Below, in pieces: positions 124-5,609 of a stretch of DNA of 64,000 nucleotides. Position numbers and translations under genes: made by a program. Under the pieces are notes generated by a model that was given only the letters and a program-made list of their open reading frames with translations, did not search any database and was not told where the DNA came from. Position 1 is the first letter of the stretch. Each line of letters begins with the position of its first letter. The DNA lies in NCBI GenBank assembly GCA_038061715.1, contig JBBTYP010000003.1, positions 12,034 to 76,033 on the forward strand, in the 5' to 3' direction. Source of the DNA: Patescibacteria group bacterium (lineage in GTDB: Bacteria > Patescibacteriota > Minisyncoccia > Phycocordibacterales > UBA918).

Positions 124-160
124 AAAACAGGCCGGAAGCAACGCTTCCGGCCTGTTTTGT
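124..160. terminator. Intrinsic-terminator-like hairpin downstream of nrdA (16-bp perfect stem, A-run/T-run flanks)
   Basis: aaaacaggccggaagc-aacg-cttccggcctgtttt; lies just 3' of the minus-strand nrdA stop. Confidence 0.6.
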
Positions 161-321: not shown

Positions 322-2043
322 TCATTTATTCTTCCCTTCGTTTTCAATCAGTTTCTTGCGGATCATTTGCTGGGCAGCGTTCATGGAGTGCTGATAGTAG
401 AGGCTTTTTACCCCTTGCTTCCAGGCTTGGATGTAGAGAGCGTTAATATCTTTCACTGGTGTGTCAGGAGCTACCATGATATTGAGTGATTGTGCTTGGT
501 CGATGTGCTTTTGTCTGTCTCCCGCTTGTTCGATTACTTTACTTTGATCAATCTCGGAGAAAGTACGATAAATCGCCTTCTCGTCGTCGGTTAGACAAGT
601 GAGATTTTGGACTGAGCCGTCGTTGTCACGAATACTGTCCCAAGTTACTTTGTCATCATGACCCTTCTCTTGAAGGAGTTTTTGTAAAGTAGGATTTTTG
701 ATAGTTACTTTCATCTTGGCGACGTCTTTCACATAACAGTTAGACCAAATCGGTTCGATACCTTGTGACACTTGTCCAAGAATGAAAGCCGAAGAAGTAG
801 TCGGTGCAATCGCAAGAAGGGTGGTGTTACGGCGACCATAACCCTTAAGCACTTCTGGTTCGCCTAGAGTCTTGGCTAGCTCAATAGTCGCAGCATCGGC
901 TTTGTCTTTAATAACTTTAAATACTTCGCGGTTGAGAGTAGCCGCTTCATCACTTTCAAAAGCCAGGCCTTTGGCTTGAAGTAGAGAGTGGTATCCAAGG
1001 ACACCAAGACCGAGAGCTCTATTTGATTTAGCGAAGTTGTACGCTCGCTGCATAAAGTCGAAGGCCCGACGCTTCTCCGGTTCGGTGTGATCGCGGAGAG
1101 TTTCGAGCTTAATGATAAATTCCTCCATCACAGCATCGAGGAAGGCCGTCATGGTTTCTACCAAGTCGGTGTCTTTCCAAGCATCGTAGTGAAGAAGATT
1201 GATAGATGACAAACAACACACGAATGACCAATCTTCTTTGCTTGGTAGCATGATTTCGCTACACATATTGCTAGCATGAATGCGAAGGTTTTTGTCTTTG
1301 TAGACATCAACAGTATTGTTGTTGGCGGTGTCGCTAAACATGATGTACGGATAGCCCATTTCACCTCGGCGTTGAATAATCCTGGCCCACACTTTACGTT
1401 TCTTCTCATCACCCGCAATCATTGCTTCCATCCAGTCGTCCCCTACCGTCACGCCGTGGGTAAGCTTCTGAATAGGGTTGCCTTCAGTACCGATATCAAG
1501 AAACTCCATGATGTCGTCGTGTTCCGCCGGCAAGTAGGGAGAGAAGTGCCCCCGGCGAACTGAACCTTGTGATACCACTACAACGAGAGTTTCAAACAGT
1601 TGCATGAAATGTACTGAGCCAGAAGAAAAACCATTGTCATTACCAATTGTGGCCCCTCGTGCTCGCAGAGCTCCGAAAAAACCCGAACAACCACCACCGT
1701 ACTTACTCATCATCCCTACTTCAGCATTGGTGTAGAGAATACTACCCATGTTGTCGTCGACATAAGAACCAAAACAACTAATCGGTAACCCTTTATCGTC
1801 GCCGAAGTTGGCCCAGACTGGCGAAGCCAACGATATCCAACCGCGCGACATGTAATCGACAAATTTATCAGCAAAACCTTCTTGCTTGAGGTACTTTTCC
1901 GCTGTTTCTGCAATCACACGAATGCGTTCTTCAGCAGTTTGTCCAGGGGCAAGATAACCTCGGGCTAGAAATCCGCGACTATTTTCGTTCAGCCAGTACC
2001 ATGGTTCCATATCAGTTGTTCGGTTATTAATTAATCGCGACAA
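322..2043 (-). CDS. nrdA: Ribonucleotide-diphosphate reductase class I alpha subunit, no N-terminal ATP-cone
   Basis: 573 aa; PISCFGSYVDDNM...KYGGGCSGFF and NMCSEIMLPS active-site-region motifs typical of class I R1; short N-terminus. Confidence 0.85.
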   Translation of the reverse strand: MSRLINNRTTDMEPWYWLNENSRGFLARGYLAPGQTAEERIRVIAETAEKYLKQEGFADKFVDYMSRGWISLASPVWANFGDDKGLPISCFGSYVDDNMGSILYTNAEVGMMSKYGGGCSGFFGALRARGATIGNDNGFSSGSVHFMQLFETLVVVVSQGSVRRGHFSPYLPAEHDDIMEFLDIGTEGNPIQKLTHGVTVGDDWMEAMIAGDEKKRKVWARIIQRRGEMGYPYIMFSDTANNNTVDVYKDKNLRIHASNMCSEIMLPSKEDWSFVCCLSSINLLHYDAWKDTDLVETMTAFLDAVMEEFIIKLETLRDHTEPEKRRAFDFMQRAYNFAKSNRALGLGVLGYHSLLQAKGLAFESDEAATLNREVFKVIKDKADAATIELAKTLGEPEVLKGYGRRNTTLLAIAPTTSSAFILGQVSQGIEPIWSNCYVKDVAKMKVTIKNPTLQKLLQEKGHDDKVTWDSIRDNDGSVQNLTCLTDDEKAIYRTFSEIDQSKVIEQAGDRQKHIDQAQSLNIMVAPDTPVKDINALYIQAWKQGVKSLYYQHSMNAAQQMIRKKLIENEGKNK

Positions 2044-2170
2044 TTATACTTTATCTTAATGACTTGTCTCTAAAAGTGCAGATTTCAAGGCGTGCTAGAG
2101 GTGGGTCGTGAGCCATACTGGACGTATGGTGAACGTCACACTTCGACGCACAACGCTGAAATATGTGCTT

Positions 2171-3484
2171 TTAGAACAAGTCGTCACTGGTGACACTAGC
2201 GGAACGCTTATTGTAGTTGATTGAACGCTTTTGAAAGAAGTCGACATGCTTAGTGGCAATCACTTCGGCGTCAAACCAATCGGTCTCCTCTAAGAGAGCG
2301 TCACTGACTTCGAAGATGCGCGGCATTCCAATAGAAGCCAATGAGTTGTTAAAGCGATGTTTAATGAACTCTTTTACGTTCGCCGCTGGCATGAAGCTGA
2401 GCTCGCCCGCCTCGTAAATCCAGTCAACAATACTACTCTCCGCTTCGTAGGCTTCCCTACAAGCAGTAACGACCCGGTCGCGACAGTCTTGATCAAACCA
2501 TTCGGGATGCTCTTCCTTAATGATGTTGATGACGTCAATCCCAAACATCCCGTGAAGGTTTTCTTCTTTTGAGGTAGCCTCTACCGCATTTGAAATACCC
2601 TTGAAGAGATTTCGGTGTTTGTTAAATGACATTATGATCAAAAACTGAGAAAAGAGTGACACGTGCTCGACAAATAGAGAGAAGAGCATGACTGATTGGA
2701 AATAATCCTTATTTTCTTGGGTTCGGGAGAGTTCAATCACCTTTTCTAAGTAGTCCATTCGTTGCTGAATGACTGGTATGTCTTTGATCTTTTTGAATTC
2801 GTCATTGAGGCCCAAGATCTCCAGCAAGTGGGCGTAGGCATCGGCGTGACGCACCTCCGATTCAGAGAAAGTGGCTCCGACGGCACCGATTTCTGGTTTT
2901 GGCATTTTTTTGTAGATGTCGCCCCAAAAAGTCTTCACTGCTACCTCAATCTGCGCAATCGCTAGCATAGCGTTTTTGATAGCGCCGCGCTCCGCTTCGT
3001 TTACATTAACGTGAAAGTCTTGCACGTCAGACGTGAAGTTAAACTCGGTATGTACCCAATATGAATGACGGATGGCGGTAGTATATTCATAGAGTTCTGG
3101 GTACTCGTAGGGCTTGAAGTTCTGGCGCTTGGCAAAGATATCACGCTCACGTAACTTCTTACGTTCGTTGCGATAGATGATGTAGGCCTTAGCCGTCATG
3201 AAAAAACCCTTCTCCATGAGAGCTTGTTCGACTAAGTCTTGAATTTCTTCCACCGCGGGACTTCCATCGATACATTTGTTGGCTAGTTCACTACCAGTTT
3301 CAGCTGTACCGGCTTGCACACACATGGCGACAACTTTTTTGTGGGCCAGTTCGGCTACTTCGATAGCTGCATCGCGATTGCCTTCGCCTGTTTCGGCCAG
3401 GGCTTTGGCGATGGCGTTCTCAATCTTCACGATATCAAAAGGCCGATGTGAGCCGTCACGCTTTCGAATAGTTTCGATGTTCAT
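2171..3484 (-). CDS. nrdB: Ribonucleotide reductase class I beta subunit (R2) with fused N-terminal ATP-cone domain
   Basis: N-terminus MNIETIRKRDGSHRPFDIVKIENAIAKA...AKAYIIYRNERKK matches ATP-cone (NrdR/NrdA-type); remainder has R2 diiron-site helices (FSESEVRHADAYAHLLE, FVEHVSLFSQF). Confidence 0.8.
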   Translation of the reverse strand: MNIETIRKRDGSHRPFDIVKIENAIAKALAETGEGNRDAAIEVAELAHKKVVAMCVQAGTAETGSELANKCIDGSPAVEEIQDLVEQALMEKGFFMTAKAYIIYRNERKKLRERDIFAKRQNFKPYEYPELYEYTTAIRHSYWVHTEFNFTSDVQDFHVNVNEAERGAIKNAMLAIAQIEVAVKTFWGDIYKKMPKPEIGAVGATFSESEVRHADAYAHLLEILGLNDEFKKIKDIPVIQQRMDYLEKVIELSRTQENKDYFQSVMLFSLFVEHVSLFSQFLIIMSFNKHRNLFKGISNAVEATSKEENLHGMFGIDVINIIKEEHPEWFDQDCRDRVVTACREAYEAESSIVDWIYEAGELSFMPAANVKEFIKHRFNNSLASIGMPRIFEVSDALLEETDWFDAEVIATKHVDFFQKRSINYNKRSASVTSDDLF

Positions 3485-3984
3485 ACCAATAAACTACGTT
3501 AGTAAAAGTAGGATCATCGCGCACGAACGTAATTGGTGGAAGACTGCTGTCTCTACTACAGGCAGCACAATTAGGTTCACAAGCGATGTGGTGAGCTAGC
3601 TAAATTTAATGAGTTGCGAAGAATCGGATGAAAATGACTTGGGTCGTACGATTTGTACGGCGAGGGTTATTTCACTGGACGATAACAAAGCAAATCGTAA
3701 ATTTATCTAGCGTAGGTCGCGACTAACACACCACCATAATGAAATATGGCGTTCTAAACTCGATAGGAGTTTGTGTGTCTTACCTCCGACACACGAGACC
3801 TCGTGTGGTTCCCTTACTATAGCACCGCTAGTTCCTGCTTGGCTATTTTTATGGGTGCCAAACGAGGGCTATTTTGCGTCAACGTATCCTCGAGTGTGTG
3901 GATAAGTTCGATCACCACTCCTATACAAAATAGTTTTGGTTTTTGCCTAGATTTTCAAGTCGCCGAAAGTGTTTCGTGGTATAG

Positions 3985-4022
3985 AAAGAGAGCAGCGAGC
4001 TTCGCTCGCTGCTCTCTTTTAC
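3985..4022. terminator. Hairpin terminator downstream of mscL
   Basis: aaagagagcagcgagc-ttc-gctcgctgctctcttt perfect 16-bp stem, T-run. Confidence 0.6.
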
Positions 4023-4412
4023 CTATCGACTAAGCCGATCGCGGATCTCGCGCAGGAGTAAGACTTCCTCGGAGGGACTCTTTGGCACTTCGGCTGCCAC
4101 TTCCTTTTTAACGACAGCTGCTTGTGCCTTATTAATACCTTTAACCACCATAAAGATAGCTAAAGCTACGATGATAAAATCGAGCACTGACTGAACGAAG
4201 ACACCGTAAGTCATGGTGGCATCGCCAAGCCGGTAGGCCAGACCAGAAAAGTTTATTCCTCCCATGAGCAGACCGATTAACGGAGTGATGATGTCGGTCA
4301 CTAGTGAAGACACTATCTTTCCAAATGCGCCGCCGATAACCACCGCCACCGCCAGGTCGAGGACATTGCCCTTCATCGCAAAGGCTTTAAATTCTGCAAC
4401 AAATGCTTTCAT
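4023..4412 (-). CDS. mscL: Large-conductance mechanosensitive channel
   Basis: 129 aa; N-terminal [27 protein letters not shown]... canonical MscL TM1 signature. Confidence 0.9.
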
Positions 4413-4463: not shown

Positions 4464-5609
4464 TTAATGATGATGGTGGTGGTGAGGTAATGAATCAGAT
4501 TGACTGTCAACTTCATGCTTTTGGTAGTACCAGGCCGCGGCAGCAGTAGTAGCCGGCACCGCCATAATGAGTCCGATGCTACCAACAATAATGCGCGTGA
4601 GTTCGGCCGCCACCACTTCTTGATTGAAAATCGCGGACATATTACTCCCCGCTTTGGCATAAAGTAAAATTAGTGGCAACGAAACCCCGACATACGCGAG
4701 AGCGAGGGTATTTACGATTGAACCAATATGGTCGCGCCCTACTGCAATCGCGCGAGTATACAGTTCCTTAAAATTAAACAGTGGGTTGGCAGCCTTGAGT
4801 TGTGCGACCACAGAGGCTTGCGTAACTGCGACATCGTCAAGGATCCCTAAAATACCGATGATAATTCCTCCCAGTAGTAAACCCGCCAGATCAAGCGAGC
4901 CATTAGTCGCAAAGTTGAGATATACCGAGGCGTCATCACTAAAACCAGTCAATCGCATTCCCCTCACACATACATATGATAAGACGCAAGTAATAAGCAC
5001 CGCACTGAAAGTTCCAATAAACGAAATAGTCGAGCGGGCGTTAAACCCGTGTGTACCAAAGAGAGCAAAAGCTAAAATAATGGCGGCGATACCTAGGGTA
5101 GTTAGCGCTGGATCATATCCTGCTAAAAGCGCTGGGACTAGCACGAAGATAATCGCAGCAACGCTAATTGCTAGCGAGAGCAGTGCCCGCACCCCTTGCC
5201 ACTTGGAGATACAAAGTAGCATTGCTACAAAGAGTGCAAAAATACCAAGGAGCATCGGCCGTCTTTCATAAGTTGAGAAAGTGATGTACTCATCGCCATT
5301 GATAGTCACAACTCGATTAACAAAAACCTTATCGTCCACCTCAAGCTTTATCATCTCAACGGTCATTGGTACGACTTCCCCTTTCTTTTCACCTTCCTCT
5401 AGCAGTACCCTGACCTCTTGTACGCTGGTGGTGGTGTCGGTGCCAGTCACCTCCCGTTCTTCACTACTTACAATTTCAAGCACAGTCCCTGAGACCGTTT
5501 CTTTTACATCTTGATGGATCGTCTCCGCTAGAGAAAGAGCGGGAGAAAATAAAGCCAGGCTAGCGATAACACAAACCCTAGAAAATAAGCCGCGCAACAT
5601 AAAATCCAA
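4464..5609 (-). CDS. YibE/F-family multi-pass membrane protein with natural C-terminal His6 tail
   Basis: 381 aa; signal/TM N-terminus, ~6 TM helices, general YibE/F-like architecture; ends ...SLPHHHHHH. Confidence 0.55.
   Translation of the reverse strand: MDFMLRGLFSRVCVIASLALFSPALSLAETIHQDVKETVSGTVLEIVSSEEREVTGTDTTTSVQEVRVLLEEGEKKGEVVPMTVEMIKLEVDDKVFVNRVVTINGDEYITFSTYERRPMLLGIFALFVAMLLCISKWQGVRALLSLAISVAAIIFVLVPALLAGYDPALTTLGIAAIILAFALFGTHGFNARSTISFIGTFSAVLITCVLSYVCVRGMRLTGFSDDASVYLNFATNGSLDLAGLLLGGIIIGILGILDDVAVTQASVVAQLKAANPLFNFKELYTRAIAVGRDHIGSIVNTLALAYVGVSLPLILLYAKAGSNMSAIFNQEVVAAELTRIIVGSIGLIMAVPATTAAAAWYYQKHEVDSQSDSLPHHHHHH

What the first reader, a model, noticed from the sequence alone, without database searches (positions are those of the whole stretch)
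2171..3484. ATP-cone fused to the radical-generating (beta) RNR subunit while the alpha subunit lacks one
The NrdB homolog starts with a clear ATP-cone (VxKRDG...F...KI..AI.KA; AKAYIxYR). The adjacent NrdA homolog (322-2043) is only 573 aa and begins directly in the catalytic region. Allosteric overall-activity control through an ATP-cone on R2 rather than R1 is a rare arrangement reported for a few lineages. It implies dATP-induced oligomerisation of the beta subunit. Seeing it in a reduced-genome episymbiont-like organism is notable.
Basis: partly seen in the sequence, partly recalled or inferred. Interest (0 to 1): 0.55.

Follow-up and report, generated by a model that had tools for sequence, protein, structure and literature searches.

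The report
ATP-cone on ribonucleotide reductase beta subunit
The small subunit of this bacterium's DNA-precursor enzyme does carry the ATP/dATP on-off sensor that normally sits on the large subunit, an arrangement described in 2018, but this lineage's version also lacks the large subunit's usual recycling cysteines and sits behind an undescribed folded RNA leader.

Summary
ORF 2171-3484 (-) encodes a 437-aa NrdB with an N-terminal ATP-cone (PF03477, E 2e-19) and an R2 core (PF00268, E 2e-62). The downstream NrdA (322-2010, 562 aa) has no cone.

The pair is a class Id (NrdAi/NrdBi) reductase. Its closest solved relative is the ATP-cone NrdB of Leeuwenhoekiella blandensis (5OLK). In that enzyme dATP drives the beta subunit into inactive tetramers. 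All interface and metal-site residues named for it are conserved here. The architecture is therefore already known.

What is new is the host range. The fusion is widespread in Patescibacteria (Paceibacteria), with at least 186 species genomes.

Three further features were found, all confined to the window's clade:
- NrdA has lost the C-terminal CxxC redox tail that the literature calls universal in class I (43 tail-less loci against 27 sister loci that keep it).
- The cone carries an ordered 13-aa insertion with two invariant cysteines.
- The operon follows a conserved DnaA box and a roughly 200-nt structured leader RNA. The leader has covariation support, no Rfam match, and is found only upstream of this nrdB.

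The cone itself is ordinary; the clade-specific extras deserve follow-up.

The parts
2171..3484 (-). nrdB, 437 aa: ATP-cone fused to a class Id (NrdBi) radical-generating subunit
   Evidence: ORF; Pfam hits. Best solved relative is 5OLK, E 1.5e-165 over residues 3-437. Foldseek also ranks 5OLK first.
3155..3472 (-). ATP-cone domain, residues 5-110
   Evidence: PF03477 E 2.2e-19. It is 42% identical to the L. blandensis cone over 90 aligned positions. K8, R9, D10 and AKAYIIYR are present. The interface residues D83, E86, M90, K99, I102, I103 and R105 correspond to Lb D73, 76, M80, K89, I92, I93 and R95. AF2 pLDDT is 76-92 for residues 1-100.
3260..3322 (-). Clade-specific segment of the cone (residues 55-75): a roughly 13-aa insertion relative to 5OLK with two invariant cysteines, C55 and C71
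   Evidence: Alignments. C55 and C71 are invariant in 33 aligned homologs. They are present in 100% of 43 clade-1 loci against 4-7% of 27 clade-2 loci. The segment is modelled as ordered, with helix 37-60 and pLDDT 85-92.
2306..3127 (-). Ferritin-like R2 core, residues 120-393, with the class Id metal site
   Evidence: PF00268 E 1.7e-62. It is 64% identical to the L. blandensis core. E180, E210, H213, E273, E308 and H311 are present and invariant, as are K184, W187, Y217, T304 and W143. These map to Lb E170, K174, W177, Y207, E263 and T294.
2174..2272 (-). Disordered C-terminal tail of NrdB, residues 405-437, ending ...SINYNKRSASVTSDDLF. It contains Y424 and is inferred to be the alpha-binding and radical-transfer tail.
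   Evidence: pLDDT is below 50 for residues 405-437. The tail is near-identical to the L. blandensis tail and invariant among homologs.
322..2010 (-). nrdA, 562 aa from the ATG (the ORF reaches a TTG at 2043): minimal class Id catalytic subunit without an ATP-cone
   Evidence: TIGR02510 at 740.8 bits. Best solved relatives are the class Id alphas 6DQX and 6DQW. A 100% identical 562-aa protein, P0121, is annotated in a Patescibacteria MAG. The active-site motifs PISCFG (C79), SNMCSEI (C250), FVCCLSS (C265/266) and LYYQ (537) are present.
325..402 (-). C-terminal end of NrdA (LYYQHSMNAAQQMIRKKLIENEGKNK) with no cysteine; the last Cys in the protein is C472
   Evidence: All 120 closest homologs have no Cys in their last 40 residues. 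43 clade-1 loci are tail-less and 27 clade-2 loci end in C-x-x-C-E-[AG]. Nearly all diverse NrdAi representatives end in CxxC. The loss is not a recoding artefact.
124..158 (-). Intrinsic terminator that closes the nrdBA operon
   Evidence: 16-bp stem followed by a T-run; sequence read.
2043..2170 (-). nrdB-nrdA spacer containing a promoter-like TAGAGA-18-TATAAT; no terminator
   Evidence: This is a consensus match only.
3816..3824 (-). Extended -10 element TGCTATAGT; inferred promoter of the leader-nrdBA transcript
   Evidence: The pattern TGnTAnnnT is invariant in 24 aligned leaders.
3703..3812 (-). Leader RNA domain 1. It comprises hairpin P1 (CACACGA/UCGUGUG), a UCGGAGGUAA linker, and a three-way junction closed by GACACAC/GUGUGUU holding two variable hairpins.
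   Evidence: CM R1 hit of 102.6 bits, E 1e-24. On 46 leaders 92.7% of cells are paired and 12 of 22 pairs show compensatory changes, against 23-58% paired in the slid controls.
3588..3712 (-). Roughly 125-nt extra hairpin inserted between the two leader domains. Most relatives lack it.
   Evidence: Alignment. It folds alone at -29.4 kcal/mol, z -4.0. There is a single copy in the window.
3516..3587 (-). Leader RNA domain 2: a long irregular hairpin P3 (AUCGC...GCGAU) with a conserved internal loop GUCUUCCACC
   Evidence: RNAalifold. On a MAFFT alignment of 24 leaders, 93.6% of cells are paired and 12 of 17 pairs show compensatory changes. The window copy folds the same way.
3897..3905 (-). Perfect DnaA-box consensus TTATCCACA upstream of the promoter
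   Evidence: One of only 2 exact boxes in 64 kb. An exact box occurs in 32 of 48 clade-1 loci and a box with at most 1 mismatch in 46 of 48. Background is about 0-0.03 exact boxes per 270 nt.
3837..3875 (-). Two AAAATAGCC direct repeats, 26 bp apart, overlapping the -35 region
   Evidence: These are the only two copies in the window. They are conserved in close relatives. Function is unknown.

Best explanation
The region is a two-gene operon, nrdB then nrdA, for a class Id (NrdAi/NrdBi) aerobic ribonucleotide reductase of a Patescibacteria (Paceibacteria) organism. The overall-activity switch sits on the radical-generating subunit. By homology with the L. blandensis enzyme, the mechanism would run as follows. 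The beta subunit holds a dimanganese centre that serves as the radical initiator without a stable tyrosyl radical. Its N-terminal ATP-cone binds ATP or two dATP molecules. With ATP, beta is a dimer and forms active alpha2beta2 with the cone-less, minimal alpha. With dATP, cones from two dimers pair through their last two helices and give a beta4 tetramer. That tetramer binds alpha2 only in non-productive alpha2beta4 or alpha4beta4 complexes, which shuts down dNTP synthesis. Shown here: domain architecture, gene order, family membership, and conservation of every named interface, metal-site and radical-path residue. Inferred: nucleotide binding, tetramerisation, Mn chemistry. The window's clade adds three peculiarities. 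Alpha has no C-terminal cysteine pair. The cone carries an ordered insertion with two invariant cysteines. Expression is preceded by a DnaA box and a structured leader RNA.
For: Pfam finds ATP-cone plus R2 on one polypeptide and no cone on NrdA. NrdA passes the NCBIfam equivalog TIGR02510. Full-length alignment to 5OLK gives E 1.5e-165; alignments to the class Id betas 6SF4, 8DQ3 and 6CWO give E 5.2e-149 (6SF4) to 1.3e-100 (6CWO). NrdA matches the class Id alphas 6DQX and 6DQW. Foldseek also ranks 5OLK first for the model. The residues reported for the L. blandensis tetramer interface and metal site are identical here and invariant in 33 homologs. The beta-then-alpha gene order is the order reported to accompany beta-borne cones (PMC9669993). 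The architecture is fixed across thousands of homologs and at least 186 species genomes at 62-93% identity, which indicates purifying selection on the fusion.
Against: No biochemistry is available for any Patescibacteria enzyme. The cone is only 42% identical to the characterised one and carries a 13-aa insertion next to helix alpha3, which forms part of the tetramer interface. The oligomeric outcome could therefore differ. The F. ignava cone, only 28% identical to the L. blandensis cone, still gives beta4, which argues for robustness of the mechanism. The missing alpha C-terminal cysteines show that this enzyme departs from the model enzyme in at least one mechanistic step. The AF2 model is of moderate quality overall (mean pLDDT 68).
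Confidence: 0.85

Rival explanations
1. The cone is retained but has been repurposed in this clade. For example, it could act as a redox-gated module, or as the carrier of the electron-shuttle cysteines (C55/C71) that replace the lost C-terminal CxxC of NrdA, rather than or in addition to being a dATP off-switch.
For: C55 and C71 are invariant in all 43 tail-less loci and essentially absent from the 27 tail-bearing sister loci. One intermediate locus, L058, has both the cone cysteines and the tail, so the cysteines arose before the tail was lost. A redoxin domain fused to the N-terminus of NrdB can serve NrdA in F. ignava (PMC6187632).
Against: The two clades are each monophyletic-looking groups, so the co-occurrence may reflect a single evolutionary event. 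The insertion is modelled as an ordered extension of helix 2 with the highest confidence in the protein, not as a flexible arm that could reach the buried active site. All nucleotide-binding and interface motifs of a working cone are intact. Other clade-specific cysteines also exist: NrdB C334 and NrdA C108.
Confidence: 0.1
2. The fusion is an annotation or assembly artefact: a separate ATP-cone gene, such as an nrdR fragment, joined to nrdB by a frameshift or mis-assembly.
For: None was found, beyond the fact that the window comes from a metagenome-type genome.
Against: The reading frame is continuous and uninterrupted. The same 437-aa architecture occurs in essentially all of the 120 best hits, drawn from independent NCBI, JGI, ENA and Logan assemblies, and in 80 of 80 genome loci inspected. 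The homologous fusion has been crystallised (5OLK).
Confidence: 0.01
3. The conserved upstream block is a set of DNA operators, for example NrdR-box-like palindromes such as ACACGAGGTCTCGTGT, rather than a structured RNA.
For: P1 is a DNA palindrome with ACAC...GTGT ends like an NrdR box, and it lies at the inferred transcription start. The stems P1 and P2 are almost invariant in sequence. Real DNA sites, a DnaA box and AAAATAGCC repeats, lie just upstream.
Against: The spacing between the P1 arms varies from 3 to about 12 nt among loci, which a dimeric DNA-binding protein would not tolerate. There is no second box at 31-32 bp. Helices P2a, P2b and P3 change sequence but keep pairing, with compensatory changes at 8 of 8 pairs and 12 of 17 pairs respectively. 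That pattern only makes sense at the RNA level.
Confidence: 0.1

Closest known systems
Leeuwenhoekiella blandensis NrdAi/NrdBi class Id RNR with an N-terminal ATP-cone on NrdB (PDB 5OLK; eLife 2018, PMC5794259; SAXS/cryo-EM PMC8350387)
   Same: Same domain order on beta and a cone-less minimal alpha. The core is 64% identical and the cone 42% identical. Tetramer-interface, metal-site and C-terminal tail residues are identical, and the gene order is beta then alpha.
   Different: The window's cone has an ordered 13-aa insertion with two invariant cysteines. Its NrdA lacks the C-terminal CxxC, whereas L. blandensis NrdA ends ...VSCEA (primer sequence). The host is a Patescibacteria organism rather than a flavobacterium. 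Whether another RNR coexists, as reported for all 2018 cases, could not be checked.
Facklamia ignava Grx-ATP-cone-NrdB fusion (J Biol Chem 2018, PMC6187632)
   Same: It is an NrdBi with an ATP-cone on beta, nrdA lies just downstream, and dATP induces beta4.
   Different: F. ignava carries an extra N-terminal glutaredoxin that reduces the C-terminal cysteines of NrdA. The window protein has no redoxin domain and its NrdA has no such cysteines.
Flavobacterium johnsoniae, Actinobacillus ureae and Aggregatibacter class Id RNRs (PDB 6CWO/6CWP/6CWQ, 8DQ3-5, 6DQW, 6DQX)
   Same: Same NrdAi/NrdBi subclass, the same minimal alpha of about 560 aa, and the same metal-ligand set.
   Different: Those beta subunits have no ATP-cone. 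From my own recollection of the literature, those enzymes are reported as insensitive to dATP.
Pseudomonas aeruginosa NrdA ATP-cone (binds two dATP, forms an alpha4 ring)
   Same: According to PMC5794259, the beta-borne cone binds two dATP and pairs through helices 3 and 4 in the same way. The window keeps those residues.
   Different: In P. aeruginosa the cone is on the catalytic subunit, so the oligomer formed is alpha4 rather than beta4.
Known cis-regulation of nrd genes: NrdR boxes, DnaA boxes at E. coli nrdAB, cobalamin riboswitches, and the 2'-deoxyguanosine riboswitch upstream of RNR genes in Mesoplasma
   Same: A conserved DnaA box precedes the operon, and a structured leader RNA lies between the promoter and nrdB.
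   Different: The leader matches none of the 4227 Rfam 15 families even at E up to 10. No tandem NrdR boxes are present. Its conserved nucleotides lie mainly in stems and in a GGAGGUAA linker rather than in junctions, unlike purine-type aptamers.

Membership tests
ATP-cone domain (Pfam PF03477) | Profile match above the curated gathering score | tested here: met
   70.2 bits against a cutoff of 25.8, E 2.2e-19, residues 5-110 covering profile positions 2-88 of 88.
ATP-cone domain (Pfam PF03477) | Conserved nucleotide-binding motifs: N-terminal hairpin [VI]xKRDG, the KI motif of helix 1, and the AKAYIxYR motif of helix 4 | tested here: met
   IRKRDG at 6-11, K20-I21 and AKAYIIYR at 98-105. All are identical to 5OLK and invariant in homologs.
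ATP-cone domain (Pfam PF03477) | Binds ATP and dATP | not testable with these tools
   This needs ITC or filter binding on purified protein.
Class Id RNR, beta subunit (NrdBi) | Sequence groups with characterised NrdBi proteins rather than with other R2 subclasses | tested here: met
   Class Id betas score E 1e-100 to 1e-165. The next subclasses score E 5e-25 or worse. Foldseek gives the same order.
Class Id RNR, beta subunit (NrdBi) | Metal site E/E-H/E/E-H with Glu as first ligand, a Lys reaching the site, the NrdBi-specific Trp on helix 1, and a Tyr at the radical position that is not H-bonded to the site | tested here: met
   E180, E210, H213, E273, E308, H311, K184, W187 and Y217 are present and invariant. 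They map to Lb E170, K174, W177, Y207 and E263. Geometry was not tested.
Class Id RNR, beta subunit (NrdBi) | Mn2(III/IV) oxidant formed with superoxide, with no stable tyrosyl radical | not testable with these tools
   This needs EPR and activity assays.
Class Id RNR, alpha subunit (NrdAi) | Minimal alpha of about 560 aa without an ATP-cone, matching the NrdAi equivalog model | tested here: met
   TIGR02510 at 740.8 bits against a cutoff of 602.25, and no PF03477 hit. 6DQX scores E 1e-208.
Class I RNR in general | [quoted passage not shown] | tested here: not met
   No Cys occurs after residue 472 of 562. All 120 closest homologs lack Cys in their last 40 residues. 43 tail-less genome loci contrast with 27 sister loci that end in CxxC. 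There is no downstream CxxC in any frame, and stop codons are TAA/TAG/TGA at 27/15/2.
Class I RNR in general | Catalytic cysteines and the tyrosine pair of the radical path in alpha; C-terminal Tyr and binding tail in beta | tested here: met
   NrdA C79, C250, C265/266 and Y538-Y539 in LYYQ; NrdB W143, Y424 and ...DDLF.
Beta-borne ATP-cone switch of the L. blandensis type | Cone at the N-terminus of NrdBi, cone absent from NrdAi, and genes ordered beta then alpha | tested here: met
Beta-borne ATP-cone switch of the L. blandensis type | Residues of the cone-cone (helix 3/helix 4) tetramer interface | tested here: met
   D83, E86, M90, K99, I102, I103 and R105 equal Lb 73, 76, 80, 89, 92, 93 and 95.
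Beta-borne ATP-cone switch of the L. blandensis type | dATP-induced beta4 and inhibition of the holoenzyme | not testable with these tools
   This needs activity assays and SEC, GEMMA or cryo-EM.
Any Rfam 15 RNA family (for the leader) | Covariance-model match | tested here: not met
   There are no hits at gathering scores in the window. Only chance-level hits appear at E up to 10 in window 3400-4100 and in L003 5740-6010.
NrdR operator | Two 16-bp AT-rich palindromes (acaCwAtATaTwGtgt) about 31-32 bp apart (consensus from my own knowledge) | tested here: not met
   Only one ACAC-N8-GTGT palindrome lies upstream of nrdB. It has a GC-rich centre, and arm spacing varies among relatives.

The most novel reading that the evidence does not exclude
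This Paceibacteria clade may be the first class I ribonucleotide reductase whose catalytic subunit has no C-terminal redox-shuttle cysteines. If so, the active site must be re-reduced by an undescribed route: the clade-specific Cys55/Cys71 pair in the insertion of the beta-borne ATP-cone, a dedicated trans-acting reductant, or direct small-molecule reduction. In addition, the operon may be governed by a new class of structured leader RNA, a riboswitch or attenuator candidate specific to nrdBA, acting together with DnaA. The tail loss and the RNA structure are observed facts. The novel reading is that they reflect a new reduction pathway and a new ligand- or protein-responsive RNA.
Probability: 0.3. 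Interest if true: 0.75.

Novelty: new variant of a known kind. Interest (0 to 1): 0.4.

Why it matters
The ATP-cone on NrdB is textbook-level knowledge for RNR specialists since 2018, so that part matters little on its own.

It does extend the known range of the arrangement. In 2018 it stood at 93 RefSeq sequences, mostly flavobacteria. It now covers a large part of the Paceibacteria, organisms with tiny genomes that depend on hosts for many precursors yet keep a tightly regulated dNTP supply.

The clade-specific features matter more:
- A class I alpha subunit without the C-terminal cysteine pair contradicts a stated generalisation. It poses a concrete, testable question about how the enzyme turns over.
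- The leader is a well-supported, unannotated structured RNA tied to a single essential operon, in a phylum where almost no cis-regulatory RNAs are characterised.
- Together with the conserved DnaA box and the ATP-cone, it indicates three stacked layers of control over dNTP synthesis.

Tried and rejected
**An ATP-cone on NrdA upstream of the ORF.** Rejected. The ORF is bounded by a stop codon, the spacer is 127 nt, and the DNA beyond it codes for the NrdB C-terminus.

**Stop-codon recoding or read-through restoring a Cys tail.** The window has TGA followed by ANERKRLCAP. Rejected. Long ORFs are intact with table 11. Tail-less homologs end in TAA 27, TAG 15 and TGA 2, with no conserved CxxC downstream.

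**A redoxin gene next to the operon that could explain the tail loss.** Regex scans for Trx, Grx and NrdH motifs in 80 loci found nothing conserved. None was found in the window either.

**A second ATP-cone protein (NrdR) or another RNR in the window.** A motif scan found none. The whole genome could not be examined.

**NrdR boxes.** Only the P1 palindrome matched, and it is better explained as an RNA hairpin.

**Rfam.** Three scans found no family.

**A pseudoknot between GGAGG and the P3 internal loop CUUCC.** Considered, but it is not conserved across leader subtypes, so I make no claim.

**The alternative hairpin GUGUGUC-GGAGGUAA-GACACAC.** It competes with P2, and in the window's leader type also with P1. 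It is plausible, and a few divergent leaders show compensatory changes (GCGUGUC/GACACGC). It is invariant in most sequences, so covariation cannot decide.

**Distance between C55 and C71.** Not measurable, because the structure tool returns no coordinates.

**Literature.**
- No paper in the held library combines Patescibacteria or CPR with ATP-cone or with an RNR riboswitch.
- The class Id alpha structure paper (PMC6456427) is not held.
Full report
**1. Observation**

The window's first 4 kb holds two long ORFs on the minus strand: 2171..3484 (437 aa) and 322..2043 (573 aa from a TTG).

Pfam places an ATP-cone (PF03477, residues 5-110, E 2.2e-19, 70.2 bits against a cutoff of 25.8) in front of a ribonucleotide reductase small-chain domain (PF00268, residues 120-393, E 1.7e-62) on the first ORF. 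On the second ORF it finds only the large-chain barrel and a weak all-alpha domain, with no cone.

NCBIfam assigns the second protein to TIGR02510 (740.8 bits against a cutoff of 602). The NrdA ORF cannot be extended. It starts after a stop codon, only 127 nt separate it from nrdB, and the DNA beyond that encodes the NrdB C-terminus. A 100% identical annotated protein starts at the ATG at 2010, giving 562 aa.

nrdB lies upstream of nrdA.

**2. What it is**

The best solved relative of the 437-aa protein is the ATP-cone-containing NrdB of Leeuwenhoekiella blandensis (5OLK). It aligns end to end with E 1.5e-165. The next best are cone-less class Id beta subunits (6SF4, 8DQ3, 6CWO and others). 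Other R2 subclasses are far weaker.

NrdA is closest to the class Id alpha subunits 6DQX and 6DQW. An AlphaFold model (mean pLDDT 68; cone residues 1-100 at 76-92) again retrieves 5OLK first.

The core is 64% identical and the cone 42% identical to the L. blandensis protein. The residues the eLife 2018 paper names are all present in the window protein and invariant in 33 aligned homologs:

| Role | L. blandensis | Window |
|---|---|---|
| Cone-cone tetramer interface | D73, 76, M80, K89, I92, I93, R95 | D83, E86, M90, K99, I102, I103, R105 |
| Metal site | E170, K174, W177, Y207, E263, T294 | E180, K184, W187, Y217, E273, T304, plus E210, H213, E308, H311 |

The catalytic cysteines and the YY pair of NrdA are intact, as are W143, Y424 and the ...DDLF tail of NrdB.

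**3. How it most likely works**

The mechanism is taken by homology from PMC5794259, PMC8350387 and PMC6187632.
- With ATP, beta is a dimer and forms active alpha2beta2.
- With dATP, two molecules bind per cone. Cones pair through helices 3 and 4, beta becomes a tetramer, and alpha2 binds only non-productively.

The beta-then-alpha gene order seen here is the order reported to accompany beta-borne cones (PMC9669993). These steps are inferred, not shown. I put 0.85 on this explanation.

**4. Is it new?**

The architecture is not new. It was described, crystallised and assayed in 2018. The host range is new.

All 120 best NrdB homologs carry both domains, and nearly all are exactly 437 aa. Where named, they come from Parcubacteria, Paceibacteria, Kaiserbacteria or Nomurabacteria. 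A scan of one genome per GTDB species found 186 genomes with a relative. The 80 inspected are essentially all Patescibacteria MAGs, including a complete 0.99-Mb chromosome.

The window itself matches a Hainich groundwater assembly. The 2018 census counted 93 RefSeq sequences, mainly from Flavobacteriales. I found no paper in the held library that links CPR or Patescibacteria with ATP-cones.

**5. Noticed while checking: the alpha subunit has lost its redox tail**

NrdA ends ...LYYQHSMNAAQQMIRKKLIENEGKNK. Its last cysteine is residue 472 of 562. None of the 120 closest homologs has a Cys in the last 40 residues. In contrast, nearly all diverse NrdAi representatives at 38-58% identity end in C-x-x-C-x-x. 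L. blandensis NrdA ends VSCEA (primer).

Within Patescibacteria the 80 loci split cleanly:

| | Clade 1 | Clade 2 |
|---|---|---|
| Complete loci | 43 | 27 |
| NrdB length | 437 aa | mostly 421-434 aa |
| NrdA C-terminus | no tail | ends C[VIL][SG]CE[AG] |

The loss is not a recoding artefact. Stop codons are TAA, TAG and TGA at 27, 15 and 2, and no conserved CxxC lies downstream.

RNR specialists state that all class I RNRs have this cysteine pair (PMC6187632). Tail-less sequences have so far been remarked on only for class II.

**6. Noticed: cysteines in the cone**

Relative to 5OLK, the window's cone has a roughly 13-aa insertion between helices 2 and 3. It contains C55 and C71.

Both are present in 100% of clade-1 loci and in 4-7% of clade-2 loci. 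NrdB C334 (70% against 0) and NrdA C108 (86% against 0) are also clade-specific. One locus, L058, has both the cone cysteines and the NrdA tail, so the cysteines arose before the tail was lost.

The model shows the insertion as an ordered extension of helix 2 with the highest confidence in the protein. This argues against a floppy shuttle arm. Because each clade may represent one evolutionary event, the co-occurrence is suggestive only. No redoxin gene is conserved next to the operon.

**7. Noticed: upstream control region**

The 540 nt between mscL and nrdB is conserved across relatives. It contains four elements:
- A perfect DnaA box at 3897-3905. An exact box occurs in 32 of 48 clade-1 loci and a box with at most one mismatch in 46 of 48. 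Background is about 0-0.03 per 270 nt.
- Two AAAATAGCC repeats.
- An invariant extended -10 element, TGnTAnnnT, at 3816-3824.
- A roughly 200-nt leader with RNA-level conservation.

Domain 1 of the leader (3703-3812) consists of hairpin P1, a UCGGAGGUAA linker and a three-way junction. A covariance model built from it finds exactly one hit per locus. In total there are 46 hits in 1.0 Mb, each falling in the stretch just upstream of nrdB where the leader had been located, and none in clade-2 loci. On that alignment 92.7% of cells pair, and 12 of 22 pairs show compensatory changes. Slid controls give 23-58% pairing.

Domain 2 (3516-3587) is a long hairpin. On an ordinary MAFFT alignment it shows 93.6% pairing and compensatory changes at 12 of 17 pairs.

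An exact 21-mer of the leader occurs in 27 metagenome contigs. In all 22 that extend far enough, the downstream gene is the ATP-cone nrdB. No Rfam family matches.

Four near-invariant segments (CACACGA, UCGUGUGUC, GACACAC, GGUGUGUU) allow mutually exclusive pairings. This is the hallmark of a switch, but covariation cannot discriminate between them.

The window's copy carries an extra 125-nt hairpin (3588-3712, z -4.0) between the two domains. I read the leader as a cis-regulatory RNA. My estimates are about 0.85 that it is a real structured RNA and about 0.3 that it senses a metabolite.

**8. Verdict**

As a member of the L. blandensis type it passes every sequence-level test. It fails one general class I feature, the alpha C-terminal cysteine pair.

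I therefore file it as a new variant of a known kind. The cone itself is of modest interest. The tail-less alpha, the cysteine-bearing cone insertion and the undescribed leader RNA are of higher interest.

Noticed in passing
window 325-402 (-), C-terminus of nrdA: NrdA has no C-terminal CxxC redox pair; its last Cys is residue 472 of 562. The same holds for the 120 closest homologs and for 43 genome loci. A sister Patescibacteria clade (27 loci) and nearly all other NrdAi proteins end in CxxC. The literature calls the pair universal in class I.
   Followed up: yes
window 3260-3322 (-), residues 55-75 of NrdB: The ATP-cone has an ordered insertion of about 13 aa with two invariant cysteines, C55 and C71. 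They are found only in the clade whose NrdA lost its Cys tail. Locus L058 has both features. Further clade-specific cysteines are NrdB C334 and NrdA C108.
   Followed up: partly
window 3516-3812 (-), upstream of nrdB: A conserved structured leader RNA: hairpin P1, a GGAGGUAA linker, a three-way junction and a long hairpin P3. It has strong covariation, no Rfam match, and is found only upstream of ATP-cone nrdB in clade-1 Patescibacteria and in metagenomes. It is a riboswitch or attenuator candidate.
   Followed up: yes
window 3588-3712 (-): A 125-nt self-folding hairpin with arms GCTAGATAAATTTA/TAAATTTAGCTAGC, inserted between the two leader domains. Most relatives lack it; L091 has a shorter insert at the same point. 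There is a single copy in the window.
   Followed up: partly
window 3897-3905 (-): A perfect DnaA box, TTATCCACA, about 75 nt upstream of the -10 element. A box at this location is conserved with at most 1 mismatch in 46 of 48 clade-1 loci and is exact in none of the clade-2 loci. It suggests DnaA-coupled nrd transcription as in E. coli.
   Followed up: partly
window 3837-3875 and 3920-3959 (-): Two AAAATAGCC direct repeats, the only copies in the window, overlap the -35 region. Further upstream lies a conserved promoter-like block, CTTGAAAATCTAGGCAAAAACCAAAACTATTTTGTATAGG. Function is unknown.
   Followed up: no
protein P0254, not in the window: A 1019-aa metagenomic protein is a single-chain fusion of ATP-cone, NrdB and NrdA, and ends in CTSCEA. 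It is an alpha-beta fusion of the same subclass.
   Followed up: no
proteins P0241-P0390: Many NrdAi cluster representatives are 650-1650 aa long with 2-4 matched stretches, meaning they are interrupted by one to three intein-like insertions at recurring sites. The window's NrdA has none.
   Followed up: no
window 2010-2048 (-): The nrdA ORF opens with a TTG at 2043, but homologs start at the ATG at 2010. A TATAAT hexamer at 2043-2048 in the nrdB-nrdA spacer could be an internal promoter.
   Followed up: no
window 4464-5609 (-): The YibE/F-family membrane protein upstream ends in a natural hexahistidine run (...SLPHHHHHH).
   Followed up: no
L001 18133-21689 (beyond the window's left edge): About 6-10 kb downstream of nrdA the same genome clusters DHFR, a CYTH protein, dCTP deaminase, thymidylate synthase and SHMT. 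This is a dTMP-synthesis neighbourhood close to the RNR operon.
   Followed up: no
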